The notes beneath the pieces were generated by a model, which was not told the DNA's origin, did no database searches, and saw only the letters and a list, made by a program, of their open reading frames with translations. Positions 3,178 to 48,536 of a stretch of 64,000 nucleotides of DNA are shown piece after piece. The position numbers were made by a program, and so were the translations under genes. Source of the DNA: Candidatus Binatia bacterium. Its GTDB lineage: Bacteria > Desulfobacterota > Binatia > UBA9968 > JAJDTQ01. The first letter of the stretch is position 1; each line of letters begins with the position of its first letter. Location of the stretch: contig OX638375.1 of the NCBI GenBank assembly GCA_951813575.1, positions 1,625,042 through 1,689,041 of the forward strand. Reading direction: 5' to 3'.

Positions 3178-3256
3178 GCCGGCAAGGTGAGGTGGTCCTG
3201 GAAAATCGGACAGGTTGCTAAGGTGTATTCCACCGACTGAAGGAGGAGGGATACGC

Positions 3257-3538
3257 ATGAGCACACGACGAAGGTTCAGCGGAGACTTCAAGGCGAAGGT
3301 GGCGCTGGAGGCGCTGCGTGGGGACAAGACGGTCCAGGAGATCGCGGCCCGGCACAAGGTCCATCCGAACCAGGTGAGCACCTGGAAGCAGCGAGCGGTG
3401 GAGGGGATGAAGGAGTTGTTCTCCAAGGGTGCGGAGCGGGCACGTGGGGACCACGAGGGGGAGGTTCGGGACCTGCACGCGAAGATCGGGGAGTTGACGG
3501 TGGAGCGGGATTTTTTGGCCAAAGGGCTCAAGTGGTGA
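3257..3538 (+). CDS. IS3-family transposase OrfA (HTH_Tnp_1)
   Basis: ORF 3215..3538 from MSTRRRFSGDFKAKV. A leucine-zipper-like C-terminus is present. Confidence 0.85.
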   Translation: MSTRRRFSGDFKAKVALEALRGDKTVQEIAARHKVHPNQVSTWKQRAVEGMKELFSKGAERARGDHEGEVRDLHAKIGELTVERDFLAKGLKW

Positions 3539-4458: not shown

Positions 4459-4582
4459 TCGAACGTCTGGAATACACCTTAACTCAGCCGCCCACCTGTC
4501 CTACAAACCAGGACCACCTCAGCCCGCGACACGCCCAAGCCAAGGCGAAACTGGACTTGCCCGGGATTGGTGGACAGGTTGG

Positions 4583-6803: not shown

Positions 6804-7217
6804 TCAACGTCCCTTAGACGGCGCAGCCTCGGAGGGCGTTTTAAAGGGTTTCGTGGCCTTGGCCTTCCCGGCCTTCGACGACCCATAGAAGGGTTTCAGA
6901 CTTCCCATCTTGCGCCGGAATTCCTCTGTGATGTGACAGGCGACGGCAGGGTCTTGTACGGCGCGGGGCGTGATCAGGACTACCAGTTCGGTACGGCGGG
7001 TGGAATCCGCGGTGGTCTTGAACAGGCGACCGAGCAGGGGGACGTCGGAAAGAGCGGACACGCCGGACTGGGACCGGTTCTTGTTCTCCCGGATCAGGCC
7101 TCCGAGAACGATGGTGTCGCCGCTCTGTGCTGCGACGCTGCGGTTGATCCTTCGCTGCTGGATGGTCGGCGTCAGGCTTCCGGCCGAGCCCGGCGCCACG
7201 TCGCTCACCTCCTGCAT
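6804..7217 (-). pseudogene. Secretin (GspD/PilQ family) C-terminal fragment, copy 2. Upstream of ~7217 the reading frame changes.
   Basis: The fragment reads LTPTIQQRRINRSVAAQSGDTIVLGGLIRENKN...SDVPLLGRLFKTT...ELVVLITPRAV. There is no N-terminal secretin domain. Confidence 0.65.
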
Positions 7218-7359
7218 GATCTCCTCTCCATGACGACGAGCCCGCCGGCGCTGACCGGGGCCTGACCGTGAGGAGCACGCCGGTGTGTGCGTGCTCGTTG
7301 AGAATTAGTCACTTCACCGAGCTCTCTGCCCTGCCTGTCCGGCGCAGCGATCCGGGAGT

Positions 7360-8875
7360 TTGGCGGTCCACTGCGTGGCAGGCTCCCACGGGTATTTGCG
7401 CATGCACGGCTACGACCACGTGGGGAGGCCAAGGAGCGAGACCGCGACCATATCCGGGGAGACCTTCCGGACAAGCCGCAGCTACGATAGCGCCGGCCGC
7501 GTGGCCACGGTGAGCTACCCCAAGAAGGGGTTTGGGGTGGGTTACGAGTATACCGCGAGCGGGTATTCGAGTAATATCTACAGTGTGGAGTCCACGGGGA
7601 CGGTGTACTGGACGGCGGAGGAGGTGAACGCCGAGGGGCAGATCACCGAGGCGATGCTGGGGAACGGGGTGAGCACCACCCGGAGCTGCGACCCGGAGAC
7701 CGGACTGGTGGAGAGCATCCAATCAGGGAAGGACGGCAACACGGAGGTACAGGACCTGGGGTATGTGTTCGACAGTCTGGGGAACCTGAGCACCCGGGAG
7801 GATTCCATCCAGGGGGTGTACGAGAGTTTTGACTATGACCTCTTGAACCGTCTTACGGGCGGCGCGGTGTACGATGCACTGGACGACACCGAGCGGGAGG
7901 CCAAGACCTACAGTTACGACGCCGTCGGCAACATCGTGAACAAGTCGGACGTGGGGGCTGAGGACTACGAGTACGAGTCCGGGAACGAGGCGGGGTCGGG
8001 GGATGCGGGTCCTCATGCGGTGGTGAGTGCCGGGGGAAACACCTACGAGTACGACGACAACGGGAACATGACCTCCGGGGCGGGGAAGGCCATGACCTGG
8101 ACGAGCTTCAACAAACCCCAGGTCATAAGCGACTCCACTACCACCAGCGCATTCATCCACGGTCCCGAAAGAGCCCGGATACAGCAGACCCGGGTGCAGG
8201 GGGCGGCCACCACCACCATCAAGTACGTGGGCACGATGTTCGAGCAGGTGGAGAAGACGGGTGCGGCCACCCAGTACGTGCACTACGTGTTTGCGGGGGA
8301 GAGGCGGGTGGCGGTGTACACCACCGACGATGGAGCCACGCCCACGGAGACGACGCGGTACCTGCACCAGGACCACCTGGGGTCGGTGGACACCATCACG
8401 GACGAGACCGGGGCGGTGGTGGAGCGGCTGTCGTACGATGCGTGGGGCAAGCGGAGGACGGCCACGGGGGACGATGCCTGGACCGACTCGCTCATAGCCA
8501 TCACCCCGGGGAACACCCCCAGAGGGTTTACCGGCCACGAGCACCTGGACGACTTCGAGCTGGTGCACATGAACGGGAGGGTGTACGACCCGGTGCTGGG
8601 GAGGTTTATGAGTCCGGATCCATTCGTGCAGTACCCGGAGAGTACTCAGGGGTTTAACCGGTATACCTATACCTCCAACAACCCCCTGTCCTTTACCGAT
8701 CCCAGCGGGTACTTCCTTTCAGAGCCGGATTGGGACGCAGACTACGAAATCGACGACGACGAGGAGAACGGGGGGCCTACGGCTGCGACGGCTGCGGCTA
8801 TACTGGCAACGATGAGGATGAACTGTACGGTGACGATCCGTGGGACGACACGCCGGTACGGCCCGGGGACACTAG
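7360..8875 (+). pseudogene. Rhs/YD-repeat protein, C-terminal core fragment (copy 1). It is 5'-truncated and carries a 1-nt deletion near 8776. Its toxin domain is replaced from ~8876.
   Basis: It has YD repeats (YEYTASGY, SYDAVGNIVN, TYEYDDNGNM) and the core-end motif RVYDPVLGRFMSPDPF...NRYTYTSNNPLSFTDPSGY. ORF 8730..8939 continues the copy-2 toxin N-terminus in a shifted frame. Confidence 0.8.
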
Positions 8876-9031
8876 AGCCTTGGCCAGATCGCGTTCCGCG
8901 ACCAGGCCCAGCGAGATCAGGAACGGACCCAGCCGTTGACCGCTTTCAGCTTGAAGCCGCAGTGCACGGTCCAGCTCCGACCGTTCCAGGCAGCGCTTCT
9001 CAACCAGCAATTCGCCGACGGCGTCGCTCAT
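8873..9031 (-). pseudogene. First 53 codons of a type II secretion / type IV pilus ATPase (GspE/PilB N-terminal domain). It is truncated at its junction with the Rhs fragment.
   Basis: The fragment MSDAVGELLVEKRCLERSELDRALRLQAESGQRLGPFLISLGLVAERDLAKAL matches the T2SSE_N domain. The remainder of ORF 8798..9031 is antisense Rhs sequence. Confidence 0.6.
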
Positions 9032-9242
9032 GGTTCGAGAGTTCCCGTGACGACGAGATTATCACGTTACCCTACGGGTCAACAGCGGTTACGACCAACT
9101 CCGAATCCACCTGCCATCGCGATCGTTCCTAGTGCCGAGCCTCAACGGCCGATCACGGCCGCTGCCTAGGCAATCCGCACCGGCATTCCGTTTCCCGATA
9201 CCGGCGCGCTGCTCACCGTCAGTTCCGGCAGTTCGTTCCCTT

Positions 9243-9965
9243 TCAGTCTTCGATCCTCCAGCCTCCAATTAGCCGATCCTGTTGCGTCTTGATCTTCACA
9301 AAATTATCCGGACGACAAACTACACCTACTACCGTCGTCTCCACCAAAATTCCGTCATAAACGCTACGAATGTTACACAACGCTTTCCGATTTAGAGTGA
9401 CAGGCCCACTCTTCACCAGTCCGCCTTCTTCCATCTCCACATAGAAGTCTGCGTTAGAAATGCCCAACACAGTGGCTCGTCTCGGATCGAAACTAAAGTA
9501 GTAATGTCGCTTCTCACCAATGAATGACTCTTCATAGCGATAAAATCCCGTTTGTTTCCCAATTCTTACCGACCTATCTAAAATGTGTTCTGATGCCCCC
9601 ACAATTGTTCGTCGATCGTACAATTTATCATAAAACAACATCAATAGAACCGACACGCCGCCGTCAACCCCGAAATCGGCACCAGGTATCGACAAGAACG
9701 TTGAAGGGGCATCATCGAAACCTTTCAGGTCTTTAAACAAATAATGAAAAATGGAGCGTGTGTTTTTTGTATATTCGTGCGGTATAGAGTACGCATGCCG
9801 GTGTCCTTTGATAGTAAGTGCCGACGCCCGGCTCGGCAACGCGACTACACATAAACACATTATGATCGTGAACAGGAACACGATGATCGTCGATTGCGAT
9901 GAAGTATATTGTGTCATAATGCAACCGTTAGTTGGACACCGGGTCACACTGCGAACAGACCACAA
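9243..9965 (-). CDS. Hypothetical protein encoded on a low-GC island. A hydrophobic N-terminal segment suggests it is exported.
   Basis: It is a 240-codon ORF whose local GC content is clearly below its surroundings. No family was recognised. It abuts the IS copy B end. Confidence 0.5.
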   Translation of the reverse strand: MWSVRSVTRCPTNGCIMTQYTSSQSTIIVFLFTIIMCLCVVALPSRASALTIKGHRHAYSIPHEYTKNTRSIFHYLFKDLKGFDDAPSTFLSIPGADFGVDGGVSVLLMLFYDKLYDRRTIVGASEHILDRSVRIGKQTGFYRYEESFIGEKRHYYFSFDPRRATVLGISNADFYVEMEEGGLVKSGPVTLNRKALCNIRSVYDGILVETTVVGVVCRPDNFVKIKTQQDRLIGGWRIED

Positions 9966-10076
9966 AAGCCGGCAGATACTGACCTAAGTAAGCACTTGTC
10001 GGCAAACTCAGAGTGAGGTGGTCCTGGTTTGTAGGACAGGGAGGCGGCTGAGTTAAGGTGTATTCCAGACGTTCGA

Positions 10077-11003
10077 TCATGCCGCCAAGGTCCCGTTTAT
10101 CACGTCTTCGTGTTCCGATGGAACTGGCAGAGGGGCGGGCGGGGTGTGAGGTCCGGCCTGCCTCTGGAGTCCTCGTTCGTAGGCCTCCTGTGGGGTGGAG
10201 CCGGCGAGGGCGGAATGAGGCCTTTGGGTGTTGTAGAAGGCCACCCACCGGGCGATGACCCGCAGGGCCGCGAAGCCTTCCGAGAGCTCGTGCAGGTAGA
10301 CAGCCTCGTACTTCATCGAGCGCCACAGGCGCTCGATGAAGATGTTGTCCATGCACCGGCCCCTTCCGTCCATGGAGATGGCAATGCCGGCGTCCTTGAG
10401 CACGGAGGTGAACTCCAGGCTGGTGAACTGGCTGCCCTGGTCGGTGTTGAAGATCTCGGGAGGGCCGTAGCGTTCCAGAGCCTCTGAGAGGGCCTCTGTA
10501 CAGAAGCGGGCATCGAGGGTGTTCGACAGCCGCCAGGAGAGCACCCGGCGGGTGGCCCAGTCCATGACCGCCACCAGGTACAGGAAGCCCTTCCGGACCG
10601 GGATGTAGGTTATATCTGCGGTCCACACGTGATTGGGCCGTTCGATGGCGACGCCCTTGAGCATATAGGGGTAAACCCGCTGCTCGGGGTGCGGTCGGGT
10701 GGTCCGCGGCGCCTGGTAGATGGCCTGGAGCCCCATCAGGCGCATCAGACGCCGCACCCGGTGACGACCCACTCGGACTCGCTCCCGCCACAGATGGCGG
10801 ACCATCTGGCGGCTGCCGTAGAAGGGGTACTCCAGGAACAGCTTGTCGATCCGGCGCATCAACGCCAGATTCTCCGCGCTCTCGCCCTTGGGCCGGTGGT
10901 ACACAGAGGATCGACTCACTCGAAGCAGATGGCATTGACGGCTCAAGCTGAGCTTGGGATGGCCGGGCTCGATCATCGCCCGGCGCTTCTCCCGGCTCAC
11001 CAC
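10077..11003 (-). CDS. IS3-family transposase OrfB, copy B
   Basis: It is 308 aa and differs from the copy A OrfB by a few substitutions. Confidence 0.85.
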   Translation of the reverse strand: MVSREKRRAMIEPGHPKLSLSRQCHLLRVSRSSVYHRPKGESAENLALMRRIDKLFLEYPFYGSRQMVRHLWRERVRVGRHRVRRLMRLMGLQAIYQAPRTTRPHPEQRVYPYMLKGVAIERPNHVWTADITYIPVRKGFLYLVAVMDWATRRVLSWRLSNTLDARFCTEALSEALERYGPPEIFNTDQGSQFTSLEFTSVLKDAGIAISMDGRGRCMDNIFIERLWRSMKYEAVYLHELSEGFAALRVIARWVAFYNTQRPHSALAGSTPQEAYERGLQRQAGPHTPPAPLPVPSEHEDVINGTLAA

Positions 11004-11278
11004 TTGAGCCCTTTGGCCAAAAAATCCCGCTCCACCGTCAACTCCCCGATCTTCGCGTGCAGGTCCCGAACCTCCCCCTCGTGGTCCCCACGTGCCCGCT
11101 CCGCACCCTTGGAGAACAACTCCTTCATCCCCTCCACCGCTCGCTGCTTCCAGGTGCTCACCTGGTTCGGATGGACCTTGTGCCGGGCCGCGATCTCCTG
11201 GACCGTCTTGTCCCCACGCAGCGCCTCCAGCGCCACCTTCGCCTTGAAGTCTCCGCTGAACCTTCGTCGTGTGCTCAT
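10997..11278 (-). CDS. IS3-family transposase OrfA, copy B
   Basis: Identical in sequence to the copy A OrfA. Confidence 0.85.
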   Translation of the reverse strand: MSTRRRFSGDFKAKVALEALRGDKTVQEIAARHKVHPNQVSTWKQRAVEGMKELFSKGAERARGDHEGEVRDLHAKIGELTVERDFLAKGLKW

Positions 11279-11313
11279 GCGTATCCCTCCTCCTTCAGTC
11301 GGTGGAATACACC

Positions 11314-12270
11314 TTAGCAACCTGTCCGTTTTTCCGGGACCACCTCAAGGGTCCTGTTTAACACGTCCTGCTGTTCCGGTTGAGCCGGCAGAGAGGCAGG
11401 TGAGCTGCAGCGCTGTGCCGGCCTCTGCGTCAGCATTCCCTTTTCGTAGACCTCGGCCGGGGTGGAGCCCCCCAAGGCGGAGTGGGGGCGCGCCCGGTCA
11501 TAGAAGGCGAACCACCGAGAGATCAGCCGCTGGGCCTGGAAGCCGTCAGAGATCTCGTGCAGGTAGACGGCCTCATACTTGAGGGAGCGCCACAGGCGCT
11601 CGATGAAGATGTTGTCCATGCAGCGGCCCCTGCCGTCCATGGAGATGGCGACGCCGGCGTCGTTGAGCACGGAGGTGAACTCCAGGCTGGTGAACTGGCT
11701 GCCCTGGTCTGAGTTGAAGATGTCGGGAGGGCCGTAGCGTTCCAGAGCCTCGGTGAGGGCCTCGACACAGAAGCGGGCATCGAGGGTGTTCGACAGTCTC
11801 CAGGAGAGCACCCGGCGGGTGGCCCAGTCCATGACCGCCACCAGGTACAGAAAGCCCTTCTGAACGGGGATGTACGTCAGGTCCGCGCACCACACGTGAT
11901 TGGGCCTCTCGATGGCCAATCCCTTGAGCAGACAGGGGTAAACCCGGTGCTGGGGATGCCGTGTGGTGGTCCGCGGCGCCTGGTAGATGGCCTGTAGCCC
12001 CATCAAGCGCATCAGACGCCGCACCCGGTGACGCCCCACAAAGACGCCTTCCCGCCACAGATGGCGGGCCATCTGGCGGCTGCCGTAGAAGGGGTACTCC
12101 AGGAACAGCTTGTCGATCCGGCGCATCAACGCCAGATTCTCCGCGCTCTCGCCCTTGGGCCTGTGGTACACAGAGGATCGGCTCACTCGAAGCAGATGGC
12201 ATTGACGGCTCAAGCTGAGCTTGGGATGGCCGGGCTGGGTCATCGCCCGGCGCTTGTCCCGGCTTACCAC
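11314..12270 (-). CDS. IS3-family transposase OrfB of copy C. Its C-terminus is altered by the junction with copy B.
   Basis: This is the lower part of ORF 11314..12585, which has DDE motifs. The upstream extension of that ORF is -1-frame read-through of OrfA. Confidence 0.7.
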   Translation of the reverse strand: MVSRDKRRAMTQPGHPKLSLSRQCHLLRVSRSSVYHRPKGESAENLALMRRIDKLFLEYPFYGSRQMARHLWREGVFVGRHRVRRLMRLMGLQAIYQAPRTTTRHPQHRVYPCLLKGLAIERPNHVWCADLTYIPVQKGFLYLVAVMDWATRRVLSWRLSNTLDARFCVEALTEALERYGPPDIFNSDQGSQFTSLEFTSVLNDAGVAISMDGRGRCMDNIFIERLWRSLKYEAVYLHEISDGFQAQRLISRWFAFYDRARPHSALGGSTPAEVYEKGMLTQRPAQRCSSPASLPAQPEQQDVLNRTLEVVPEKRTGC

Positions 12271-12612
12271 TTGAGCCCTTTGGCCAAAAAATCCCGCTCC
12301 ACCGTCAGCTCCCCGATCTTCGCGTGCAGGTCCCGAATCTCCCCCTCGTGGTCCCCTCGTGCCCGCTCCACCCCCTTGGAGAACACCTCCTTCATCCCCT
12401 CCACCGCCCGCTGCTTCCACGTGCTCACCTGGTTCGGGTGGATCTTGTGCCGCGTGGCGATCTCCTGGATCGTCTTGTCCCCTCGCAGTGCCTCCAGCGC
12501 CACCTTCGCCTTGAAGTCTCCGCTGAACCGTCGTCGTGTGCTCATTGCGTATCCCTCCTCCAGTCGGTGGAATACACCTTAGCAACCTGTCCGATTTTCC
12601 AGGACCACCTCA
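11348..12612 (-). mobile_element. IS3-family insertion sequence, copy C. It is a diverged relative (~85-90% protein identity). Its 3' terminal ~70 bp and that IR are missing because it abuts copy B directly.
   Basis: OrfA is at 12264..12545. The OrfB reading frame runs through into the copy B terminal IR (ending ...LEVVPEKRTGC). The 5'-end terminal IR is at ~12612. Confidence 0.8.
12264..12545 (-). CDS. IS3-family transposase OrfA of copy C
   Basis: The 93-aa product reads MSTRRRFSGDFKAKVALEALRGDKTIQEIATRHKIHPNQ... Confidence 0.8.
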   Translation of the reverse strand: MSTRRRFSGDFKAKVALEALRGDKTIQEIATRHKIHPNQVSTWKQRAVEGMKEVFSKGVERARGDHEGEIRDLHAKIGELTVERDFLAKGLKW

Positions 12613-13157: not shown

Positions 13158-15488
13158 CTACTTGCCAGTAAAGTAGTCCCTAATTGGTTTAAGATCATAC
13201 TCGATTCCAAATGAATAGGGTGCTATAGTCCCGCTAATGCCGATGGACAAGTCCCAACTGGGGGCCTCCCAACCAAAAATGTTCATGTTCTTAACTCCGT
13301 CCCTGTGGTTGAAATCAGCATCCCACCCATAAAGACGGCCACCGAAGTTATAGTAGCTAAACTGGAGATCAGCAGTCGATTTACCCCAAATAGCTGTTCC
13401 TCTGTAATCGCGGTTAAGCCCACCAGAAGCGACTACGAACCCGCCACCAATTTTGAAAGGGCCAAATTTAAGTTCTTTGATGTGATACCCCCAACCAGCG
13501 CCTATTTCGACACTGTGCCCCTTTTTGACAGCATCCCATAAACCCTTAACTTGCTCCCATGCCCCTCCCTCGATACCAAGTATCTCGGCATAATCCTGAA
13601 CCCTCCTCATGTCTCCCGCTAGTAGAAGGTCGTTCATTTCGGCTCTGATAGTCTCCGTGGTGGGGAGCCTATGCTCTTTCTCCCAACTGTCGTAGTCTGG
13701 CACTATGGTCACTCCCCCGCCCGAACCGGAGGCGCTTGATACTTTTTGTCCCGTGCCGGTGTTAGTGATCCTAGTGTCCCCGGGCCGTACCGGCGTGTCG
13801 TCCCACGGATCGTAGCCGTACAGTTCATCCTCATCGTTGCCAGTATAGCCGCAGCCGTCGCAGCCGTAGGACCCCCCGTTCTCCTCGTCGTCGTCGACTT
13901 CGTAGTCTGCGTCCCAATCCGGCTCTGAAAGGAAGTACCCGCTGGGATCGGTAAAGGACAGGGGGTTGTTGGAGGTATAGGTATACCGGTTAAACCCCTG
14001 AGTACTCTCCGGATACTGCACGAATGGATCCGGACTCAGGAACCTCCCCAGCACCGGGTCGTACACCCTCCCGTTCATGTGCACCAGCTCGAAGTCGTCC
14101 AGATGCTCGTGGTCGGTAAACCCTCTGGGGGTGTTCCCCGGGGTGATGGCTATGACCGAGTCGGTCCAGGCATCGGTCCCCGTGGCCGTCCTCCGCTTGC
14201 CGAAGGCATCGTACGACAGCCGCTCCACCACCGCCCCGGTCTCGTCCGTGATCGTGTCCACCGACCCCAGGTGGTCCTGGTGCAGGTACCGCGTCGTCTC
14301 CGCGGGCGCGGCGGCATCGTCGGTGGTGTACACCGCTATTCGCCTCTCCCCCGCAAACACGTAGTGCACGTACTCGGTGGCCACACCCGTCTTCTCCACC
14401 TGCTCGAACGCCAACCCCACGTACTTGATGGTGGTGGTGGCCGCCCCCTGCACCCGGGTCTGCTATATCCGGGCTCTTTCGGGACCGTGGATGAATGCGC
14501 TGGTGGTAGCGGAGTCGCTTATGACCTGGGGCTTGTTGAAACTCGTCCAGGTCATGGTCCGTCCCGCCCCGGAGGTCATGTTCCCGTTGTCGTCGTACTC
14601 GTACGTGTTCCCACCCGCGCTCACCACCGCATGAGGACCTGCATCCCCTGACCCCGCTTCGTTCCCGGTCCCGTACTCGTAGTCGTCATCCCCCACGTCC
14701 GACTTGTTCACGATGTTGCCCACGGCGTCGTAGCTGTAGGTCTTCTCCTCCCGCTCGGTGTCGTCCAGTGCATCGTACACCGCGCCGCCCGTAAGACGGT
14801 TCAAGAGGTCATAGTCAAAACTCTCGTACACCCCCTGGATGGAATCCTCCCGGGTGTTCAGGTTCCCCAGACTGTCGAACACATACCCCAGGTCCTGTAC
14901 CTCGGTGTTGCCGTCCTTGCCTGACTGTATGCTCTCCACCAGTCCGGTCTCCGGGTCGTAGCTCCGGGTGGTGCCCACTCCGTTCCCCAGCATCGCCTGG
15001 GTGATCTGTCCCTCGGCGTTCACCTCCTCCGCCGTCCAGTACACCGTCCCCGGGGACTCCACACTGTAGATATTACTCGAATACCCGCTCGCGGTATACT
15101 CGTAACCCACCCCAAACCCCTTCTTGGGGTAGCTCACCGTGGCCACGCGGCCGGCGCGGTCAAAACTCCGGCTGGTCCGGAAGGTCTCGCCCTTGATGGT
15201 CTCGGTCTCGCTCTTGGGCCTCCCTACGTGGTCGTAGCCATGCATGCGCAGGTACCCGTGGGGTCCCGCCACCCAGTGGAGTTTTCCTATGCCCGTGACC
15301 GCCGTGTCATAGCTCCAGGTGGTGGTCCCTTCCCCCTCGGTCCGGCTTACCATCCGACCCAGCACATCGTACTCCATGGTCGCCGTCTGACCCTTGGCGT
15401 CGGTCTGGGAGGTGATCTCTCCCAGGGAGTTGTACGCGTAGCTCCATTCTCCCATGTCGGGGTCGCTCATCCCTACCTTGCGGCCCAG
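13158..15488 (-). pseudogene. Rhs/YD-repeat protein (copy 2). Its core C-terminal region and a complete C-terminal toxin domain of unrecognised family are present. It is 5'-truncated at ~15488 by an IS fragment and has an in-frame stop at 14463..14465.
   Basis: ORFs 13158..14453 and 14463..15548 are contiguous in one frame (RARI*QTRVQ, where copy 1 has Q). The core ends at PLSFTDPSGY. A ~230-aa Gly/Trp-rich tail follows. Confidence 0.8.
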
Positions 15489-42617: not shown

Positions 42618-44129
42618 ATGCCCGACCGCTACGACGTCATCATCATCGGCGGCGGCTCGGGCGGCTGCGTTGCCGCCGCCCGGCTGAGCGAAGACCCGCG
42701 CCGCAAGGTGCTGCTGCTGGAAGCCGCGCCGGACCCGCAACCGATCCCGGAAGCCATCCGGCGGGCCAGCGCCCGTGACCGGGTCTGGCTCGAGACCCCC
42801 TACGTCGACATGGTCCCGGTGGTGCGGCCCGTGGACGGCAGCCCATTCCGCTCTCTCGCGGGAAAGATCATGGGCGGGGGCTCGTCGGTCAACGCCATGG
42901 CCTGGGTGTGGCCGACCCGGCACGACATGGACCGGTGGGTGGCGGCGGGGAATCCGGACTGGTCCTGGGAAGCGGTCCACGGAGTCCTGCAGCGCATCGA
43001 GGCGGACCAGGACTTCCCGGACGACCCGGACCACGGCCACGCCGGACCGGTCTACGTCAAGCGTCCCTTCAGCCTGGACTCGGACCTGTCCCCGGTGGTC
43101 CGGGCCTGTATCGACGGCGCCGCCGAAATGGGCCTCCCGCGCCTCCCCGACACCAACATCCCCGACCCCGTGGGCGTGGGACCGGGGGTCTCCAACATCA
43201 AGGACGGTGTGCGCCAGTCCGCGGTGGTGAGCCATCTCGAACCGGCACGGGGGCGTCCGAACCTCACCGTCAAGGCCGAGGCGCCGGTGCTGGGGCTGAC
43301 CCTGTCGGGCAGCCGCGTGGACGGCGTGCGTTACGAAAAGGACGGCCAGATCCACACGGACACCGCGGGCCAGGTGGTTCTGGCCGCGAGCGCCTACCGC
43401 ACGCCCCAGCTCCTCATGCTGTCGGGTATCGGCCCGGCAGCCGAGCTGGAACGGCTGGGCATCGAGGTGGCGCACGGGCTCGAGGGCGTCGGAGGAAACT
43501 TCCAGGACCACGCCGTCGTCCACGTGACCTTCGAGGCCGCCATGGACTTCGAGGTGGCGTGGACCCTGTCGAGGCTTCGTCTCATGGCACGGACCTCCCC
43601 GAGCGTGGACCACGGGGACTTCAGCGCTTCGCTGCGGCCGCCCACCAGGATCGAGGGCGTGGGCACCCTGCTGCCCTTGTCCGTTCAACTGCTGGAGCAA
43701 GGGGCGTCGGGACGGATCCGCCTCCCCAGCCTGGATGCCAGGGATTTCCCCGTTGTGGAGACGGGACTGCTGGAAGACCCGAAGGACGTGGAAAAGATGG
43801 TGGCGGCCATGGAGTTCCTCCAGGACCTCGCCCGGACCTCGCCGATGCGCGAGTTCTACGGCGCGGTACGCAACCCGGCCCCCCAAGAGGACTGGGCGAC
43901 CTTCGCCCGCTCCACCTACGACAGCTACCACCACGCTTCCGGCACCTGCAGGATGGGACCGGCGGAAGACCCCGGCTCGGTGGTGGACCAGCGCCTGCGC
44001 GTCCACGGACTGGACAACCTGTGGGTGGCGGACGCCTCGATCATGCCCGAGGTAACCCACGCCAACACCAACGCCACGGTCTACGTCATCGCCGAACGGC
44101 TGGCGGAGTTCCTGGGGAGCGCGGCGTAG
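42618..44129 (+). CDS. GMC-family FAD oxidoreductase (choline dehydrogenase-like)
   Basis: It has YDVIIIGGGSGGCVAAARLSED and the C-terminal HxxGTCRMG motif. Confidence 0.85.
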   Translation: MPDRYDVIIIGGGSGGCVAAARLSEDPRRKVLLLEAAPDPQPIPEAIRRASARDRVWLETPYVDMVPVVRPVDGSPFRSLAGKIMGGGSSVNAMAWVWPTRHDMDRWVAAGNPDWSWEAVHGVLQRIEADQDFPDDPDHGHAGPVYVKRPFSLDSDLSPVVRACIDGAAEMGLPRLPDTNIPDPVGVGPGVSNIKDGVRQSAVVSHLEPARGRPNLTVKAEAPVLGLTLSGSRVDGVRYEKDGQIHTDTAGQVVLAASAYRTPQLLMLSGIGPAAELERLGIEVAHGLEGVGGNFQDHAVVHVTFEAAMDFEVAWTLSRLRLMARTSPSVDHGDFSASLRPPTRIEGVGTLLPLSVQLLEQGASGRIRLPSLDARDFPVVETGLLEDPKDVEKMVAAMEFLQDLARTSPMREFYGAVRNPAPQEDWATFARSTYDSYHHASGTCRMGPAEDPGSVVDQRLRVHGLDNLWVADASIMPEVTHANTNATVYVIAERLAEFLGSAA

Positions 44130-44147: not shown

Positions 44148-45659
44148 ATGTCCGATCACTACGACGTCATCATCATCGGCGGCGGCTCCGGCGGCTGCGT
44201 GGCCGCGGCCCGACTGAGCGAGGACCCGCGCCGCAAGGTGCTGTTGCTGGAGGCCGCCGCGGATCCGCAGCCGCCGCCGGACACCGTCCGGCTGGCCAGC
44301 GGCCGGGACCGGCTCTGGCTCGAGAGTCCCTACATCGACACGTTGCCCGTGGAACGGCCCATCGACGGAAGCACGTTCTACCCCATGGCCGGGAAGATCA
44401 TGGGAGGGGGCTCGTCCGTCAACGCTATGGGCTGGGTGTGGCCCACGCGCCACGACATGGAGCGGTGGGTGGCGGCCGGCAATCCCGACTGGTCCTGGGA
44501 CACGGTCCATGAGATGCTGAAACGCATCGAAGCGGACCAGGACTTGCCCGGCGACCCCGATCACGGCCACGCCGGACCGGTTTACGTCAAGCGCCCCTTC
44601 AGCCTGGACTCGGACCTGGCTCCGGTTATCCGGGCCTATATCGACGGCGCCGCCGAGCTGGGCATCCCGCGCCTGCCCGACACCAACCTCCCGGATCCGG
44701 TGGGCGTGGGCCCCGGGGTCTGCAACATCAAGGACGACGTGCGCCAATCCGCGGCCGTGAGCCATCTCGATCCGGCGCGGGGACGTCCGAACCTCACCAT
44801 CAAGGCGGAAGCGCCGGTGCTGGGGCTGACCCTGTCGGGCAGCCGGGTGGACGGGGTGCGCTACGAAAGGGACGGCGAAGTCCACACGGACACCGCCGGC
44901 CAGGTGGTGCTGGCGGCCGGCGCCTACCGCAGCCCGCAGCTCCTGCTCCTGTCGGGCATCGGCCCGGCCGCGGAGCTGGAGGCCCTCGGCATCGCGGTCA
45001 CCCACGCGCTGGACGGCGTGGGAAGGAACTTCCAGGACCATGCCCACATCCACATGACGTTCGCGGCCGCCAGGGAATTCGAGGTGGACTGGACCCTGCC
45101 GAGGCTGCGGCTCATGGCCCGGAGCTCCGCCGGCCTGGACCACGGCGACTTCAGCGTCACCCTGCGGCCGCCCACGAATATCCAGGGCGTCGGCTCCCTG
45201 CTGCCCCTCTCCGCGCAACTGCTGGAGCAAGAGGCGCCCGGGCGGATCCACCTCAACAGCACCGACCCCAGGGACTTCCCGGCCATCGAAACCGGGATGC
45301 TGGAGCATCCCGCGGACGCGAAGAAGATGGTCGCCGCCATGGAGTTCATCCGCGACCTGACCCGCACGTCACCCATGCGGGAGTTCTACGGCGAGTTGCG
45401 CAACCCCGGGCCGGACGAGGACTGGGCCACCTGGGCCCGCTCGACCTACGACAGCTATCAACACGCCAGCGGCACCTGCAGGATGGGGCCGGCCAACGAC
45501 CCCGCAGCGGTGGTGGACCAGCGATTGCGGGTCCACGGGCTGGACAACCTGTGGGTGGCGGACGCCTCGGTCATGCCCGAGGTGGTACGTGCCAACACCA
45601 ACTCCACCGTCTACGTCATCGGGGAGCGCCTGGCGGAGTTCCTGAGCAGCGCGGCGTAG
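44148..45659 (+). CDS. GMC-family FAD oxidoreductase, tandem paralogue (~80% identical to the previous gene)
   Basis: It has the same length (503 aa) and the same motifs. Confidence 0.85.
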   Translation: MSDHYDVIIIGGGSGGCVAAARLSEDPRRKVLLLEAAADPQPPPDTVRLASGRDRLWLESPYIDTLPVERPIDGSTFYPMAGKIMGGGSSVNAMGWVWPTRHDMERWVAAGNPDWSWDTVHEMLKRIEADQDLPGDPDHGHAGPVYVKRPFSLDSDLAPVIRAYIDGAAELGIPRLPDTNLPDPVGVGPGVCNIKDDVRQSAAVSHLDPARGRPNLTIKAEAPVLGLTLSGSRVDGVRYERDGEVHTDTAGQVVLAAGAYRSPQLLLLSGIGPAAELEALGIAVTHALDGVGRNFQDHAHIHMTFAAAREFEVDWTLPRLRLMARSSAGLDHGDFSVTLRPPTNIQGVGSLLPLSAQLLEQEAPGRIHLNSTDPRDFPAIETGMLEHPADAKKMVAAMEFIRDLTRTSPMREFYGELRNPGPDEDWATWARSTYDSYQHASGTCRMGPANDPAAVVDQRLRVHGLDNLWVADASVMPEVVRANTNSTVYVIGERLAEFLSSAA

Positions 45660-46046
45660 GAGCCGAGGCGATGAAGGACCGGCTTTGCATGGAACCCGGC
45701 CACTACCCCGAACCCATCAGCCATTCTTGACAGTCGCGGGCACCGGCCGACACTCGCCGGACGGATGCCCCGGGATCCTGTTCAATGCGTCCGGCGGTTC
45801 GGCAGACCGTGAACACTGCTGGCGGAGACCGTCGACGCCGTCAGAAGCGCTCGACCCTGTCGTGTCCGCTCACCGCTAAAATCTTCAGCTCAACACAGTA
45901 ACGAACGGCACCGGGCACGATCAGCACGGCGCAAGCTCGACCCGTGCGTGATCCTCTGAAGGGGCCTCCCGTTCCTGCTCGACGGCCGATGAAGGACTTG
46001 TTGAAGGTGCCAACGGAATGGCGGGTGAAGCGCTTGACCGAATTCA

Positions 46047-46070
46047 TTAATGAGAATATATTCTCATTAA
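46047..46070. promoter_or_regulatory. Perfect 24-bp palindrome TTAATGAGAATATATTCTCATTAA; a Fur-family (Zur-type) box 26 bp upstream of znuA that overlaps the likely -10 region
   Basis: It is an AT-rich perfect dyad in an otherwise GC-rich region. TTGACC lies 17 bp upstream. The position was anchored through ORF 45841..46284. Confidence 0.65.
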
Positions 46071-46095
46071 ATTCTTTCATCGGGAGGACCTTGCA

Positions 46096-47130
46096 ATGAA
46101 GAGATCGGGTGGCCTGTTTCTCGCCATCGCGGCGGGCTTTTGGATCAGCGTGTTTTCGGCCTTTGCCTGGGCGCAGTCGGTCAACGTCGTCACCAGCGTG
46201 ATTCCGGCGGCGTATATCTTCGAGGAGTTGGGAGGGGCGCGAGTCAACGTGACTGCGTTGGTGCCGCCTGGGGCGAGCCCCCATATGTTCGAGCCCGTGC
46301 CCAGCGACATCCGAAAACTCGCCCGGGCGCGGTACTTCGTCAACATCGGCGGTGGGTTGGATGCCTGGTCGGAGAGATTACTGGCCGCGGCCCCCAAGGG
46401 AATCGAGGTCGTGACGCTGATAGACACGCCGAACCTGAACCTCTTGGAAGCAGCAGAACACCACCACGATCACCACGGCGAAGAAAAGGCGGCCATGAAG
46501 GACGAGCATCACGGCCATGGTGAAGAGAAGGTCGCCATGAAGGATGAACATCACGGCCATGGTGAAGAGAAGGTCGCCCAAGAGAGCGGCGAGGAACACG
46601 GGGCATTCGATCCGCACTTCTGGTTGGACCCGATCCGTGTCAGGGACGCCGTGGTTCCGGCGGTGACGCAACGGTTGATCGCCGCGGACCCGGCCGGCAA
46701 GGACTACTACGAGAAGCGCCGCCAGGACTTCCACCGGAGGCTGACCGCCTTGGACCAGCGGGTCCGGTCGGAGCTGGCCAAGGCGAAGGTGCGCAAGTAC
46801 ATCGCCTTCCACGACGCCTGGGTCTACTTTGCCGAGCGCTACGGGTTGGAGGAGGTGGCGGTGGTCCAGGAATTCGCCGGCGAGGAGCCCACGCCCAAGG
46901 AAGTGGCCAAGCTCGTGCGCGACGCCCGCGCCGAGGGGCTCGGGGCCATGCTGGTGGAGCCGCAACTGAGTCCCCGCGTGGCCCAGACCATTAGCAAGGA
47001 GTTCGGTGGCCGGACCGTAGTGGTGGATCCGCTGGGCGATCCCGGCGATGCGGCGCGAGACAGCTACGAGAAGCTGCTGCAGTTCAACGCCCGCAGCTTC
47101 GGAAAGGCGCTGCAAAGCAGCGTGAATTGA
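46096..47130 (+). CDS. znuA: Zinc ABC-transporter substrate-binding protein ZnuA (TroA family) with an expanded His/Glu-rich loop
   Basis: It has a signal peptide and the TroA fold. The loop is HHHDHHGEEKAAMKDEHHGHGEEKVAMKDEHHGHGEEKVAQESGEEHG, encoded by ~39-nt tandem repeats at ~46456..46606. Confidence 0.8.
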   Translation: MKRSGGLFLAIAAGFWISVFSAFAWAQSVNVVTSVIPAAYIFEELGGARVNVTALVPPGASPHMFEPVPSDIRKLARARYFVNIGGGLDAWSERLLAAAPKGIEVVTLIDTPNLNLLEAAEHHHDHHGEEKAAMKDEHHGHGEEKVAMKDEHHGHGEEKVAQESGEEHGAFDPHFWLDPIRVRDAVVPAVTQRLIAADPAGKDYYEKRRQDFHRRLTALDQRVRSELAKAKVRKYIAFHDAWVYFAERYGLEEVAVVQEFAGEEPTPKEVAKLVRDARAEGLGAMLVEPQLSPRVAQTISKEFGGRTVVVDPLGDPGDAARDSYEKLLQFNARSFGKALQSSVN

Positions 47131-47215
47131 CCGACAGGCCCGCGGGCCTGATAACCATCATAAAATGATAACGCAATATCATTATCAATCTATTTGCGTG
47201 AAAGGAGCGCATCCA

Positions 47216-48463
47216 ATGAGAATCAAGAAGCTGAAGCTACTCGCAACCCTGGCTGCCTCGGTGGCTTTGTTGTTCGCCGTCCACGCGGCCACCGCGAGCC
47301 CAACTTCCGTTGCGGGCCGCCTGCTGGTGGGCGACGGCGAGACCGGAATGTTGTCGATCATCGACCTGAAAAAGGGCGATGTGAAGCAGGACGCCTTTGA
47401 CATGGGGTCCCCGGCCGGCCGCATCTACGCCACCAAGAGCAAGCGCTATGCCCTCGCGGTCTCCAGCGACGCCAACACCGTGCACGTCTTCGACGGCGGT
47501 ATCTACCGGGAACGCCATGGCGACCATTTCGACCAGGTGACCGGACCGGTCAAGCAAATCGATGTGGACCTGACCGGCGAACGCCCGGTGCACTTGTATG
47601 TCAGTGGCAAGTGGTCCGCCATATTCTATGACGGGTCCGGCGACGTGGTGCTGCTCAACGAGGACGAACTTGGGAAGAAGCGAGCCAACTACAAACCGCC
47701 CAAGCTCAACGCGGGTCCCCACCACGGCGGGGCGGTGCCATTGGCACATGACCTGTTCGCGGTCACCGTCCCGCACCCGGACTTTGCCGCCAACCCAAAG
47801 GACTACCGTCTCCCCATCGGCGCCGAAATCGTCGACCTGTCGGGGAAGGTGCTGCATCGCCAGGAGGGCTGCAAGGATCTGCACGGCGACGCCGGAAACG
47901 GCCATGTGGCGGCCTTCGCGTGCAGGGGCGGCGTCCTCACCCTGGAAGCGGACCATGACAAGTACAAGGGGAGGTTCATCCCGTTTCCGGAGGGTGTATC
48001 CAAGGATCTCCGCCTGACCGCGATCTGGGGTTACACCGGTCTGGATCACTTCTTCCCTCTCGGTTCCGCGGCTGGCGTGTTCGCCGTGGATGCCAAGAAG
48101 GGCGTCATGAAGCAGTTGGTCTCCGCTTCGGACGCCGCAAAGCCCATCAACGCCGCCGTAAGCCACGACGGCAAGGCACTGCTGGTCGTGATGAGCGACG
48201 GCGAGTTGCGGAAGTACGACACCCGCAAGCTCGACCTGTTGGCCTCGGCGCGCGATTTCCTGGGTAGCCCGGTAGAGACGGGCTTCTGGGCGCGCCCCCA
48301 TGTCACCACCATTCCCGGAGCCGTCTTCATCACCGACTCCGTGGGCGGCAAGGTGCTGCGACTGGACGACCAGAACCTCAAGGTCGTCGAAAGCTGGAAG
48401 ATCGCCGGCAAGCCGACCAAGGTGGCCTTCGTGGGCATCTTGAAAAAGACCGCGGGCCACTAG
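47216..48463 (+). CDS. Secreted hypothetical protein, beta-propeller-like, with His-rich patches; it follows znuA on the same strand
   Basis: It has a signal peptide (MRIKKLKLLATLAASVALLFAVHA) and motifs HGDHF, GPHHGG and HGDAGNGH. No family was recognised. Confidence 0.4.
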   Translation: MRIKKLKLLATLAASVALLFAVHAATASPTSVAGRLLVGDGETGMLSIIDLKKGDVKQDAFDMGSPAGRIYATKSKRYALAVSSDANTVHVFDGGIYRERHGDHFDQVTGPVKQIDVDLTGERPVHLYVSGKWSAIFYDGSGDVVLLNEDELGKKRANYKPPKLNAGPHHGGAVPLAHDLFAVTVPHPDFAANPKDYRLPIGAEIVDLSGKVLHRQEGCKDLHGDAGNGHVAAFACRGGVLTLEADHDKYKGRFIPFPEGVSKDLRLTAIWGYTGLDHFFPLGSAAGVFAVDAKKGVMKQLVSASDAAKPINAAVSHDGKALLVVMSDGELRKYDTRKLDLLASARDFLGSPVETGFWARPHVTTIPGAVFITDSVGGKVLRLDDQNLKVVESWKIAGKPTKVAFVGILKKTAGH

Positions 48464-48536
48464 ATCCAGCGCCTCCCTTGACCCCCGGACCCGGCGCGGT
48501 GCTTCCCTGTGCGTTGCCCGCGTCGGGTCCGGTTCC

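What the first reader, a model, noticed from the sequence alone, without database searches (positions are those of the whole stretch)
46047..48463. Zur-box-controlled znuA with a triplicated His-rich repeat, followed by a secreted His-rich propeller-like protein and no znuBC
The feature list gives the details of the palindrome and of the ZnuA loop. The ~39-nt tandem repeats that encode the ZnuA loop are a slippage-prone arrangement. The next gene encodes a secreted beta-rich protein with HGDHF, HHGG and HGDAGNGH patches. Neither the permease nor the ATPase gene (znuB, znuC) is adjacent. This suggests a zinc-starvation regulon split across the genome, with the downstream gene a candidate zinc-binding protein or metallochaperone.
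Basis: partly seen in the sequence, partly recalled or inferred. Interest (0 to 1): 0.5.

Follow-up and report, generated by a model that had tools for sequence, protein, structure and literature searches.

The report
Zinc-starvation pair: ZnuA-type binder plus AztD chaperone
This is a two-gene zinc-scavenging unit of an uncultured Binatia bacterium: a periplasmic zinc-binding protein and a divergent member of the known AztD zinc-chaperone family, both behind a conserved palindromic operator, with the membrane transporter encoded elsewhere. It is a well-behaved new member of a known system, not a new kind of system.

Summary
A perfect 24-nt palindrome (46047-46070) lies over the -10 of a sigma-70-like promoter in front of a ZnuA-family gene (46096-47130). 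That gene's His-rich loop is built from 42-nt (not about 39-nt) tandem units. A secreted all-beta protein gene follows (47216-48463). No permease, ATPase or Fur-family gene occurs in the 64 kb.

The downstream protein is a divergent AztD, the periplasmic beta-propeller zinc metallochaperone first described in Paracoccus denitrificans. It matches both AztD crystal structures by sequence and by predicted fold. All seven zinc ligands and the disulfide are conserved.

A second, weaker copy of the operator precedes aztD. In sister Binatia genomes the same box precedes two other operons: aztA-aztB-aztC-COG0523, 2.5 Mb from aztD in one of them, and znuA-znuC-znuB. So a split zinc regulon is supported. 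The regulator itself (Zur) was not found, and these operons were not located in the window's own genome.

The loop repeat varies in copy number between relatives.

A by-product outside the window: in Dehalococcoidia a whole AztD propeller is inserted into the flexible loop of an AztC-type binding protein.

Verdict: new member of a known kind, modest interest.

The parts
46034..46062 (+). Sigma-70-like promoter of znuA: TTGACC, 17 nt, TATATT
   Evidence: Promoter scan, 10 of 12 matches. Only 2 such sites in 3 kb against 0.5 expected. A TTGACA at the same place in L002-L004.
46047..46070 (.). Operator box 1: perfect 24-nt palindrome TTAATGAGAATATATTCTCATTAA (core TGAGAA-N4-TTCTCA), centred on the -10 hexamer
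   Evidence: Position-weight-matrix score 40.5, where mononucleotide shuffles give 0.005 hits of score 20 or more per 64 kb. Conserved in L002-L004, with symmetric G>T / C>A changes in L003 that keep the palindrome.
46096..47130 (+). znuA-type periplasmic zinc-binding protein (cluster A-I SBP), 344 aa, with signal peptide ...AFAWA|QS. Predicted Zn ligands H63, H174, H239.
   Evidence: Pfam PF01297, E 3e-72. Best solved relative is Synechocystis ZnuA 1PQ4, E 1e-37, with the three His in the aligned PH..EP, DPH.W and FH..W motifs. Below the NCBIfam cut-offs for ZnuA, AztC and MntC.
46468..46593 (+). Three 42-nt (14-aa) tandem units encoding the His-rich flexible loop. The loop spans about residues 122-168 and holds 12 His.
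   Evidence: Tandem Repeats Finder: period 42, 2.5 copies, 89% matches. Register and the 30-nt exact duplicate. L003 has exactly one unit fewer. Paralogues in L040-L042 have 5-8 units.
47135..47150 (+). GC-rich hairpin just after the znuA stop codon, without a U-run. Possible partial terminator or RNA-stabilising element.
   Evidence: repeat I4. RNA fold -11.7 kcal/mol, z -2.6. Retained in L006 next to the znuA deletion scar.
47162..47185 (.). Operator box 2: AAAATGATAACGCAATATCATTAT (core TGATAA-N4-ATATCA), 31 nt upstream of the aztD start codon
   Evidence: Position-weight-matrix score 36.1, the only other hit in the window. Conserved upstream of aztD in L002-L006 and L010.
47216..48463 (+). 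aztD: periplasmic beta-propeller zinc metallochaperone homologue, 415 aa. Site 2 = H101, H104, D106 and C-terminal H415. Site 1 = H126, H170, H223. Disulfide C219-C236.
   Evidence: Sequence match to PDB entries. NCBIfam NF038015 AztD, E 5e-32, full-length match. AlphaFold2 model. Foldseek. Ligand identities from PMC6689063. Conservation in 32 homologues. Residue check.
48485..48532 (+). Long GC-rich hairpin after aztD, the likely end of the transcription unit
   Evidence: RNA fold -37.7 kcal/mol, z -3.8. DNA homology between the window and distant Binatia aztD loci ends exactly at 48532.

Best explanation
The locus is a zinc-starvation module of a Candidatus Binatia genome.

Regulation. A dimeric, zinc-sensing repressor, most likely a Fur-family Zur, binds a palindromic operator. 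One copy sits over the -10 of the znuA promoter and a second, weaker copy sits in front of aztD. When zinc is scarce the repressor leaves and both genes are expressed.

Proteins. Both products are exported to the periplasm. AztD, an eight-bladed beta-propeller, captures Zn at two conserved sites and passes Zn from its surface site 2 (H101/H104/D106/H415) to the flexible His-containing loop of a cluster A-I binding protein. The binding protein then docks on an ABC permease/ATPase that is encoded elsewhere under the same operator.

Likely partners. Two candidates were seen in sister genomes: the aztA-aztB-aztC-COG0523 operon and a znuA-znuC-znuB operon. The adjacent ZnuA-type protein is a paralogue of the ZnuA of that second operon. 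Its loop of 14-residue His-rich units acts as a low-affinity zinc antenna or docking arm, and its length changes by unit gain and loss.

Shown: gene identities, fold, ligand conservation, operator recurrence, copy-number variation, absence of the transporter from the window.

Inferred: the identity of the repressor, the zinc response, the direction of transfer, and which binding protein and permease are used.
For: AztD identity. Ligand definitions and the transfer mechanism come from PMC6689063.

ZnuA identity and ligands.

Operator:
- Perfect palindrome over the -10.
- Second copy in front of aztD.
- Symmetric substitutions in L003.
- The same box lies upstream of aztA in L020, L023 and L036 and upstream of znuA-znuC-znuB in L040-L042.
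- No hit anywhere else in the window or in 20 Binatia loci.

Transporter elsewhere. In genome OY761465.1, which has the same znuA-aztD arrangement (L004), aztABC-COG0523 lies at 0.33-0.36 Mb and aztD at 2.86-2.88 Mb. Its binding protein is AztC-type: 264 bits to PdAztC 5W56 and 311 bits to NCBIfam AztC.

Loop repeat variation.

Functional coupling of this AztD clade with a cluster A-I binding-protein loop. In Dehalococcoidia, homologues 62-67% identical are inserted at that loop in a single polypeptide, in an operon that also carries zur, znuC and znuB.
Against: - No Fur-family gene was found in the window or in any Binatia locus fetched.
- The operator core is 6-4-6 (equivalently 7-2-7), one base wider than the 7-1-7 usually quoted for Fur-family boxes (my own knowledge). 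It is also unlike the P. denitrificans Zur motif GTAATGTAATAACAT.
- The AztD match reaches only 111 bits against NCBIfam's curated 400-bit cut-off, and identity to solved AztDs is about 25%.
- In P. denitrificans AztD does not give zinc to the long-loop ZnuA, and binding-protein/permease pairing is highly specific. The adjacent ZnuA-type protein may therefore not be AztD's client.
- The aztABC and znuACB operons were seen in sister genomes, not in the window's own genome.
- No clear sigma-70 promoter was detected for aztD itself.
Confidence: 0.75

Rival explanations
1. Dedicated pair. The adjacent ZnuA-type protein is AztD's own client. AztD loads it through the long repeat loop, and it then uses the ZnuC/ZnuB transporter of the paralogous znuA-znuC-znuB operon. 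This would resemble the pneumococcal orphan binding protein AdcAII, which is encoded beside Pht proteins and shares AdcCB.
For: The two genes are adjacent and co-oriented behind one operator in four genomes: the window and L002-L004. Zinc transfer from AztD needs the client's flexible loop. The window's ZnuA is 58-64% identical to the ZnuA of znuA-znuC-znuB operons in other Binatia.
Against: The znuA copy was deleted in L006 and L008, leaving box 1 and the ribosome-binding site, while aztD was kept. In most Binatia aztD stands alone. L020 has aztD directly beside aztA-aztB-aztC. The Dehalococcoidia fusions use an AztC-type scaffold. PdAztD does not transfer zinc to PdZnuA.
Confidence: 0.35
2. 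Co-regulated neighbours only. AztD serves the distant AztABC transporter. The adjacent ZnuA-type gene is a redundant, dispensable paralogue that shares only the operator, and it works as a spare binding protein or periplasmic zinc buffer.
For: aztD is conserved with its own box and terminator as a unit that ends exactly at 48532, in unrelated genomic contexts. Scars show loss of znuA. aztABC carries the same box. AztC-AztD fusions exist in another phylum.
Against: The adjacent gene is intact, with conserved ligands and 90-96% amino-acid identity across four genomes, so it is under selection. Its loop is of the kind that chaperones dock on.
Confidence: 0.4
3. The palindrome is the site of a different regulator, such as Fur, Mur, a DtxR-type or another family, and the module responds to manganese, iron or a general stress rather than to zinc.
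For: No zur gene was located. The half-site spacing differs from textbook Fur-family boxes. The ZnuA-type protein also gives sub-threshold matches to Mn-binding family models. A DtxR-type gene lies near the znuACB operon in L042.
Against: Every box found precedes genes typical of Zur regulons: AztD, AztC-type and ZnuA-type binding proteins, a COG0523 GTPase. The binding proteins have the three-His arrangement and His-rich loops that mark zinc-specific members. AztD binds zinc.
Confidence: 0.1

Closest known systems
AztABCD zinc uptake system of Paracoccus denitrificans, and AztD of Citrobacter koseri (PDB 6CK1, 6CMK, 6N01)
   Same: A periplasmic eight-bladed propeller with the same seven zinc ligands and the same disulfide, encoded next to a cluster A-I binding protein. 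The system belongs to a zinc-starvation regulon. A COG0523 gene is associated, as is often seen near aztD.
   Different: - Only about 25% identical to the solved AztDs, and below NCBIfam's AztD cut-off. Public records call its relatives 'hypothetical protein'.
- The neighbouring binding protein is not AztC-type. It is ZnuA-type with a long repeat loop.
- aztA, aztB and aztC are not adjacent. In a sister genome they are 2.5 Mb away.
- aztD has its own operator copy, whereas the P. denitrificans aztC-aztD spacer has no Zur box.
ZnuA of Synechocystis PCC 6803 (PDB 1PQ4) and the long-loop 'Group II' ZnuA proteins
   Same: Best solved match, E 1e-37. The three His ligands sit in the same motifs. 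A long acidic, His-rich flexible loop lies just before the DPHxW motif.
   Different: The loop is made of 14-residue tandem units that vary in number between relatives: 2-3 here, 5-8 in paralogues. The gene is separated from any permease or ATPase gene.
Orphan binding protein plus chaperone arrangements: pneumococcal AdcAII beside Pht proteins, and ZinT with ZnuA in enterobacteria. These are cited in PMC6689063; the gene-arrangement details are my own knowledge.
   Same: An extra zinc-binding protein and an accessory zinc-delivery protein are encoded together, away from the transporter they feed, under the zinc regulator.
   Different: The chaperone fold is unrelated (propeller versus Pht or ZinT). 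The regulator there is AdcR or enterobacterial Zur. Sharing of a permease is not shown here.
AdcA of streptococci (ZnuA domain fused to a ZinT domain). Relevant to the by-product seen in Dehalococcoidia.
   Same: Chaperone and binding protein are joined in one polypeptide (text of PMC6689063).
   Different: In the Dehalococcoidia proteins the chaperone is AztD. It is inserted inside the binding protein at the flexible-loop position, between the two lobes, rather than appended to the C-terminus.

Membership tests
AztD zinc metallochaperone family | Full-length sequence similarity to experimentally characterised AztD | tested here: met
   phmmer: 6CMK E 1.3e-35 (residues 3-411) and 6CK1 E 2.3e-27. 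NCBIfam NF038015 E 4.9e-32 over profile positions 1-354 of 356.
AztD zinc metallochaperone family | Score above NCBIfam's curated cut-off for NF038015. This is an annotation threshold, not a biochemical property. | tested here: not met
   111 bits against a cut-off of 400. The protein is a divergent branch, and automatic annotation leaves its relatives as 'hypothetical protein'.
AztD zinc metallochaperone family | Eight-bladed beta-propeller fold | tested here: met
   AlphaFold2 model, pLDDT 89.9, pTM 0.86, all-beta. Foldseek ranks 1-9 are all AztD chains, TM 0.85-0.87 and E 1e-25 to 5e-29. The next hits have TM about 0.5.
AztD zinc metallochaperone family | Site 1 ligands: three His in the central pore (PdAztD H124, H167, H218) | tested here: met
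   They align with H126, H170 and H223. Nearly invariant in 32 homologues.
AztD zinc metallochaperone family | Site 2 ligands: H99, H102, D104 and the C-terminal His, with G100 in the turn | tested here: met
   H101-G102-D103-H104-F105-D106, and the last residue is H415. H101 and D106 are invariant and H104 nearly invariant.
AztD zinc metallochaperone family | Conserved disulfide (PdAztD C214-C231) | tested here: met
   C219 and C236 align with them and are invariant in the alignment.
AztD zinc metallochaperone family | Export signal and neighbourhood of zinc-uptake genes | tested here: met
   N-terminus MRIKKLKLLATLAASVALLFAVHAATA read from the sequence. It is modelled as a low-confidence helix. 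The adjacent gene is a PF01297 family member.
AztD zinc metallochaperone family | Binds zinc and transfers it to a binding protein | not testable with these tools
   Needs purified proteins.
Cluster A-I zinc-binding proteins (ZnuA Pfam family) | PF01297 domain over the whole mature protein | tested here: met
   E 3.3e-72, residues 31-337, profile positions 1-262 of 263.
Cluster A-I zinc-binding proteins (ZnuA Pfam family) | Three His ligands, and a His-rich flexible loop before DPHxW (the zinc-specific type) | tested here: met
   H63, H174 and H239 align with identical His of Synechocystis ZnuA. Their role as ligands in 1PQ4 is from my own knowledge. The loop at residues 122-168 carries 12 His.
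Cluster A-I zinc-binding proteins (ZnuA Pfam family) | Assignment to a named subfamily (ZnuA, AztC, MntC) by NCBIfam cut-offs | tested here: not met
   ZnuA 159 of 268 bits, AztC 151 of 350, MntC 165 of 400. No subfamily can be assigned. By solved structures it is nearer to ZnuA 1PQ4 (133 bits) than to AztC 5KZJ (70 bits).
Cluster A-I zinc-binding proteins (ZnuA Pfam family) | Encoded with its permease and ATPase | tested here: not met
   No ABC-3 permease or related ATPase in the 64 kb. Paralogues in other Binatia are in znuA-znuC-znuB operons.
Zur (Fur-family) regulon operator | AT-rich palindrome overlapping the promoter of zinc-uptake genes | tested here: met
Zur (Fur-family) regulon operator | Recurrence in front of several zinc-homeostasis operons, and not elsewhere | tested here: met
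   The box lies upstream of znuA and aztD (window, L002-L010), aztABC-COG0523 (L020, L023, L036) and znuACB (L040-L042). There are no other hits. This was shown across sister genomes, not as a whole-genome scan.
Zur (Fur-family) regulon operator | A zur gene in the genome | not tested
   None in the window or the fetched Binatia loci. The rest of the genome could not be searched. The Dehalococcoidia operon does start with a Fur-family gene.
Zur (Fur-family) regulon operator | Typical 7-1-7 half-site spacing of Fur-family boxes | tested here: inconclusive
   The core is TGAKAA-N4-TTMTCA (6-4-6, equivalently 7-2-7), an even-length palindrome. The 7-1-7 rule is recalled from memory, and lineage-specific Zur boxes differ.
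Zur (Fur-family) regulon operator | Zinc-dependent repressor binding | not testable with these tools
   Needs a gel-shift assay or expression data.

The most novel reading that the evidence does not exclude
Two things the evidence leaves open.

(a) This AztD clade may have broadened its clientele to a long-loop ZnuA-type binding protein. The only studied AztD (P. denitrificans) cannot do this. The variable-number His repeat would then be the docking arm.

(b) In Dehalococcoidia the same AztD clade is inserted, as a whole propeller flanked by two disordered linkers of about 35 residues, into the flexible loop of an AztC-type binding protein. That makes a natural single-chain chaperone-receptor. 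None of the AztD papers read here mentions it. It would allow the metal hand-off to be studied in one polypeptide.
Probability: 0.5. Interest if true: 0.5.

Novelty: new member of a known kind. Interest (0 to 1): 0.3.

Why it matters
The result gives a name and a testable function to a gene whose relatives are annotated as 'hypothetical protein' in uncultured Binatia. Record names suggest that many of the related genomes are sponge-associated; this is an inference.

It also reconstructs a three-locus zinc regulon and its operator for a phylum with no genetics.

It shows that an AztD chaperone can be unlinked from aztABC and paired with a different class of binding protein. That bears on how specific chaperone-client recognition really is.

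The loop repeat polymorphism and the Dehalococcoidia insertion fusions offer natural variants for testing the proposed loop-mediated zinc transfer. None of this changes the known picture of bacterial zinc uptake.

Tried and rejected
- Pfam on the downstream protein: no family. Identity came from PDB, NCBIfam and fold searches.
- tblastn of ZnuB/ZnuC (Dehalococcoidia type, AztAB type via L020, Binatia ZnuCB type) and of E. coli Zur against the window: nothing.
- Scan of the metagenome collection for the exact box (TTAWTGATAATATATTATCAWTAW): 8 hits. Six are from AT-rich organisms (17-30% GC) and two from mid-GC contigs (46% and 51%). All are unrelated, and none has a zinc gene by tblastn. A dead end.
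- Rfam on the locus and on the long leader upstream of aztA in L023: no match.
- Promoter scan did not find a sigma-70 promoter for aztD. Whether aztD is read through from the znuA promoter or has its own start is open.
- The Binatia position-weight matrix and core pattern do not hit the Dehalococcoidia zur operon. By eye there are palindromes of similar build there (AGATAC-N4-GTATCA, GAGAC-N4-GTCTC) after a TTGACA/TAnAAT promoter. I do not count them as the same motif.
- The idea that the adjacent binding protein is AztC was rejected. AztC-type scores are far lower for it than for the protein of the distant operon.
- The idea that znuA was inserted next to aztD in this lineage was rejected in favour of loss elsewhere. 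L006 keeps box 1, the ribosome-binding site, ATG AAG AGA CGG and then the 3' hairpin. L008 keeps the ribosome-binding site.
- I could not reach the window's own genome outside the 64 kb.
Full report
**1. What is in the sequence**

The window has 65% G+C. At 46047-46070 lies TTAATGAGAATATATTCTCATTAA, a perfect 12+12 palindrome that is 79% A+T. It is unique in the window at up to three mismatches and absent from 100 shuffles.

It overlaps a sigma-70-like promoter: TTGACC at 46034-46039, a 17-nt spacer, and TATATT at 46057-46062 (10 of 12 matches). The -10 hexamer therefore sits at the centre of the palindrome, the classic position for a repressor. A GGGAGGA ribosome-binding site and the ATG at 46096 follow.

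The gene at 46096-47130 encodes a 344-aa ZnuA-family protein (PF01297, E 3e-72). It has a signal peptide ending AFAWA|QS. Its best solved relative is Synechocystis ZnuA 1PQ4 (E 1e-37). The AztC structure 5KZJ scores far lower, at 70 bits. Three His residues (H63, H174, H239) sit in the motifs that align with identical His in 1PQ4.

**2. The His-rich loop**

Residues 122-168 carry 12 His. They are encoded by tandem units of 42 nt, not about 39: Tandem Repeats Finder gives 2.5 copies at 89% matches, 46473-46578.

In codon register the units read DHHGEEKAAMKDEH, HGHGEEKVAMKDEH and HGHGEEKVAQESGE. A 30-nt stretch is exactly duplicated at 46507-46536 and 46549-46578.

The slippage idea is borne out by comparison. 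Of three syntenic sister genomes, L003 lacks exactly one 14-residue unit. Paralogous ZnuA proteins of other Binatia have five to eight such units. Homologues range from 313 to 414 aa.

**3. The downstream gene**

The gene at 47216-48463 (415 aa) starts at the ATG behind AAAGGAG, the start also chosen by a public gene call. It has no Pfam family.

It does match the two crystallised AztD proteins over its whole length: Citrobacter koseri 6CMK at E 1e-35 and Paracoccus denitrificans 6CK1 at E 2e-27. It also matches NCBIfam NF038015 'zinc metallochaperone AztD' at E 5e-32, end to end. That score is only 111 bits against a curated cut-off of 400, so this is a divergent branch. Public records name its relatives 'hypothetical protein'.

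The structure paper (PMC6689063) defines these features in PdAztD:
- site 1: H124, H167, H218;
- site 2: H99, H102, D104 and the C-terminal His;
- G100 in the turn;
- a C214-C231 disulfide.

In the HMMER alignment they correspond to H126, H170, H223; H101, H104, D106, H415 (the last residue); G102; and C219-C236. All are invariant or nearly so in an alignment of 32 homologues.

An AlphaFold2 model (pLDDT 89.9, pTM 0.86) is all-beta. Its nine best Foldseek hits in the PDB are all AztD chains, with TM 0.85-0.87. The next hits are generic propellers at TM about 0.5.

**4. A second box, and the ends of the unit**

Between the genes there is a short GC hairpin (47135-47150, -11.7 kcal/mol). After it comes AAAATGATAACGCAATATCATTAT (47162-47185), which shares the core TGAKAA-N4-xTMTCA with box 1.

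I built a position-weight matrix from the boxes of the window and its relatives. It finds only these two sites in the 64 kb, with scores of 40.5 and 36.1. Mononucleotide shuffles give 0.005 hits per window at a far lower threshold.

A strong hairpin (48485-48532, -37.7 kcal/mol) follows aztD. DNA similarity to distant Binatia aztD loci stops exactly at 48532.

**5. Whose genome, and what the relatives show**

AztD homologues 78-99% identical come from Candidatus Binatia MAGs. Some of these are labelled Thermodesulfobacteriota or Deltaproteobacteria. L002-L004 are syntenic with the window over more than 15 kb and keep box 1, znuA, box 2 and aztD.

Box 1 varies in a way that preserves symmetry. 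It is TGAGAA...TTCTCA in the window and TGATAA...TTATCA in L003, as expected for a dimer-binding site.

In the other Binatia, aztD is a solitary gene in unrelated contexts but still carries the box or boxes.

L006 retains box 1, the ribosome-binding site, ATG AAG AGA CGG TGA and the 3' hairpin. L008 retains the ribosome-binding site. So znuA was lost there rather than gained here.

**6. Where the transporter is**

The window contains no ABC-3 permease, no related ATPase and no Fur-family gene.

L020, whose AztD is 91% identical, shows aztD, then a box (score 41.5), then aztA, aztB and an AztC-type binding protein.

In OY761465.1, the genome of L004, the AztB orthologue lies at 0.33-0.36 Mb. 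The znuA-aztD pair lies at 2.86-2.88 Mb. The operon there is aztA-aztB-aztC, a 104-aa ORF, a COG0523 (CobW) GTPase and a WD40 propeller. Its binding protein is AztC-type: 264 bits to 5W56 and 311 bits to NCBIfam AztC. The only matrix hit in its 21 kb is TTAATGATAATATATTATCAATAA (score 44), next to a TTGACA, about 320 nt upstream of aztA. A second genome (L036) shows the same arrangement.

Other Binatia also carry a znuA-znuC-znuB-znuA2 operon. Its first gene is 58-64% identical to the window's ZnuA, and it is again preceded by TTGACA and a box scoring 24-30.

The box thus marks at least three zinc-uptake loci. It was shown in sister genomes. I could not search the rest of the window's own genome.

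**7. Mechanism**

My preferred account is as follows.
- A zinc-loaded Zur-like dimer occludes the znuA promoter and the aztD upstream region.
- Zinc shortage lifts repression.
- Both proteins enter the periplasm.
- AztD binds zinc at both sites and transfers it from site 2 to the flexible loop and then the three-His site of a cluster A-I binding protein, as shown for PdAztD and AztC.
- The binding protein delivers zinc to a permease encoded elsewhere.

Which binding protein is the client is open.

For the adjacent ZnuA-type protein: conserved adjacency and a long docking loop.

For AztC:
- loss of the adjacent gene in several lineages while aztD is kept;
- the L020 arrangement;
- the finding that PdAztD does not serve PdZnuA;
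- the fusions described in section 8.

The regulator is inferred. The core spacing (6-4-6) is one base wider than the Fur-family 7-1-7 I recall, and it differs from the Paracoccus Zur motif.

**8. By-product outside the window**

In nine Dehalococcoidia genomes the tblastn hits of ZnuA split around the AztD hit in one reading frame.

L012 encodes a 781-aa lipoprotein with this order: binding-protein N-lobe, complete AztD with all ligands, a His-rich stretch, the DPHFW motif, binding-protein C-lobe. A Fur-family gene lies upstream and znuC-znuB lie downstream.

The scaffold is AztC-type (283 bits, in two stretches). About 85 protein clusters have this architecture.

An AlphaFold model of one of them (P0037) has confident lobes and propeller joined by two disordered linkers of about 35 residues, with pTM 0.56.

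The AztD papers I read mention only the ZinT-ZnuA fusion AdcA.

These AztD domains are 62-67% identical to the Binatia protein, against about 25% for the proteobacterial AztDs. That suggests exchange between phyla.

**9. Comparison and verdict**

The locus works like the Paracoccus AztABCD/Zur system, and its downstream gene passes every structural membership test for AztD. It fails only the NCBIfam annotation cut-off.

It differs in three ways: the class of the neighbouring binding protein, the unlinking from aztABC, and the possession of its own operator copy.

Association of aztD with a ZnuA-family gene, Fur-family genes and COG0523 is already documented for the family.

I therefore rate it a new member of a known kind, of modest interest. 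The loop repeat polymorphism and the Dehalococcoidia insertion fusions are the most useful leads.

Noticed in passing
L011-L018 (for example L012 9395-11740); proteins P0015-P0120: In Dehalococcoidia a complete AztD propeller is inserted at the flexible-loop position of an AztC-type zinc-binding lipoprotein (about 570-780 aa). The operon is zur, fusion gene, znuC, znuB. There are about 85 protein clusters of this kind, annotated only as 'metal ABC transporter substrate-binding protein'. The AztD papers read here do not mention it.
   Followed up: partly
L023 9258-14635; L036 5258-10635; L037; L038: Conserved Binatia operon: aztA, aztB, aztC, a 104-aa ORF with no family, a COG0523 (CobW) GTPase and a 346-aa WD40 propeller. 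It lies behind the same operator box. A leader of 240-320 nt between box and aztA has no Rfam match.
   Followed up: partly
L040-L042, about 6950-11050: Binatia znuA-znuC-znuB-znuA2 operon behind a weaker copy of the box. Its ZnuA has a His-rich loop of 5-8 tandem units of 13-14 residues (for example HDDHGHEEKPAMK six times in L041). The operon sits next to ArsP-Band_7 genes and a SCO1 gene.
   Followed up: partly
L006 5484-5620; L008 9710-9960: Deletion scars of the znuA copy. Box 1 and the ribosome-binding site are kept, and in L006 also ATG AAG AGA CGG TGA and the 3' hairpin, directly upstream of aztD.
   Followed up: yes
window 47150-48532 compared with L005-L010, L019, L020: Among more distant Binatia, DNA similarity to the window is confined to aztD with about 60 nt upstream and 70 nt downstream, ending at the terminator hairpin. 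The genomic contexts are otherwise unrelated. The gene with its box and hairpin behaves like a relocatable unit.
   Followed up: partly
window 3188-4521, 10014-11347, 11501-12545: Three copies of an IS3-family element (HTH_Tnp_1 ORF plus rve integrase ORF). Two are 99% identical and lie in inverted orientation.
   Followed up: partly
window 7367-8775 and 13872-15280: A 1.4-kb inverted duplication (94% complementary) carrying RHS-repeat protein fragments, with a secretin fragment at 6804-7217. This looks like a rearranged toxin or secretion region between the IS copies.
   Followed up: no
window 42618-44129 and 44148-45659: Two tandem 503-aa GMC oxidoreductase paralogues immediately upstream of the zinc locus (the corresponding L002 copy aligns to each at 82-83% and 95% nt identity). 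The surrounding genes are rich in Amidohydro_2, MmgE/PrpD, FAA hydrolase and TctC-type functions.
   Followed up: no
L012-L018, about 8650-8760 and 9200-9400: The Dehalococcoidia zur-fusion operon has its own palindromes after a TTGACA/TAnAAT promoter (AGATAC-N4-GTATCA, TTGAGAC-N3-GTCTTGA types). They resemble the Binatia box in build but do not match it.
   Followed up: no
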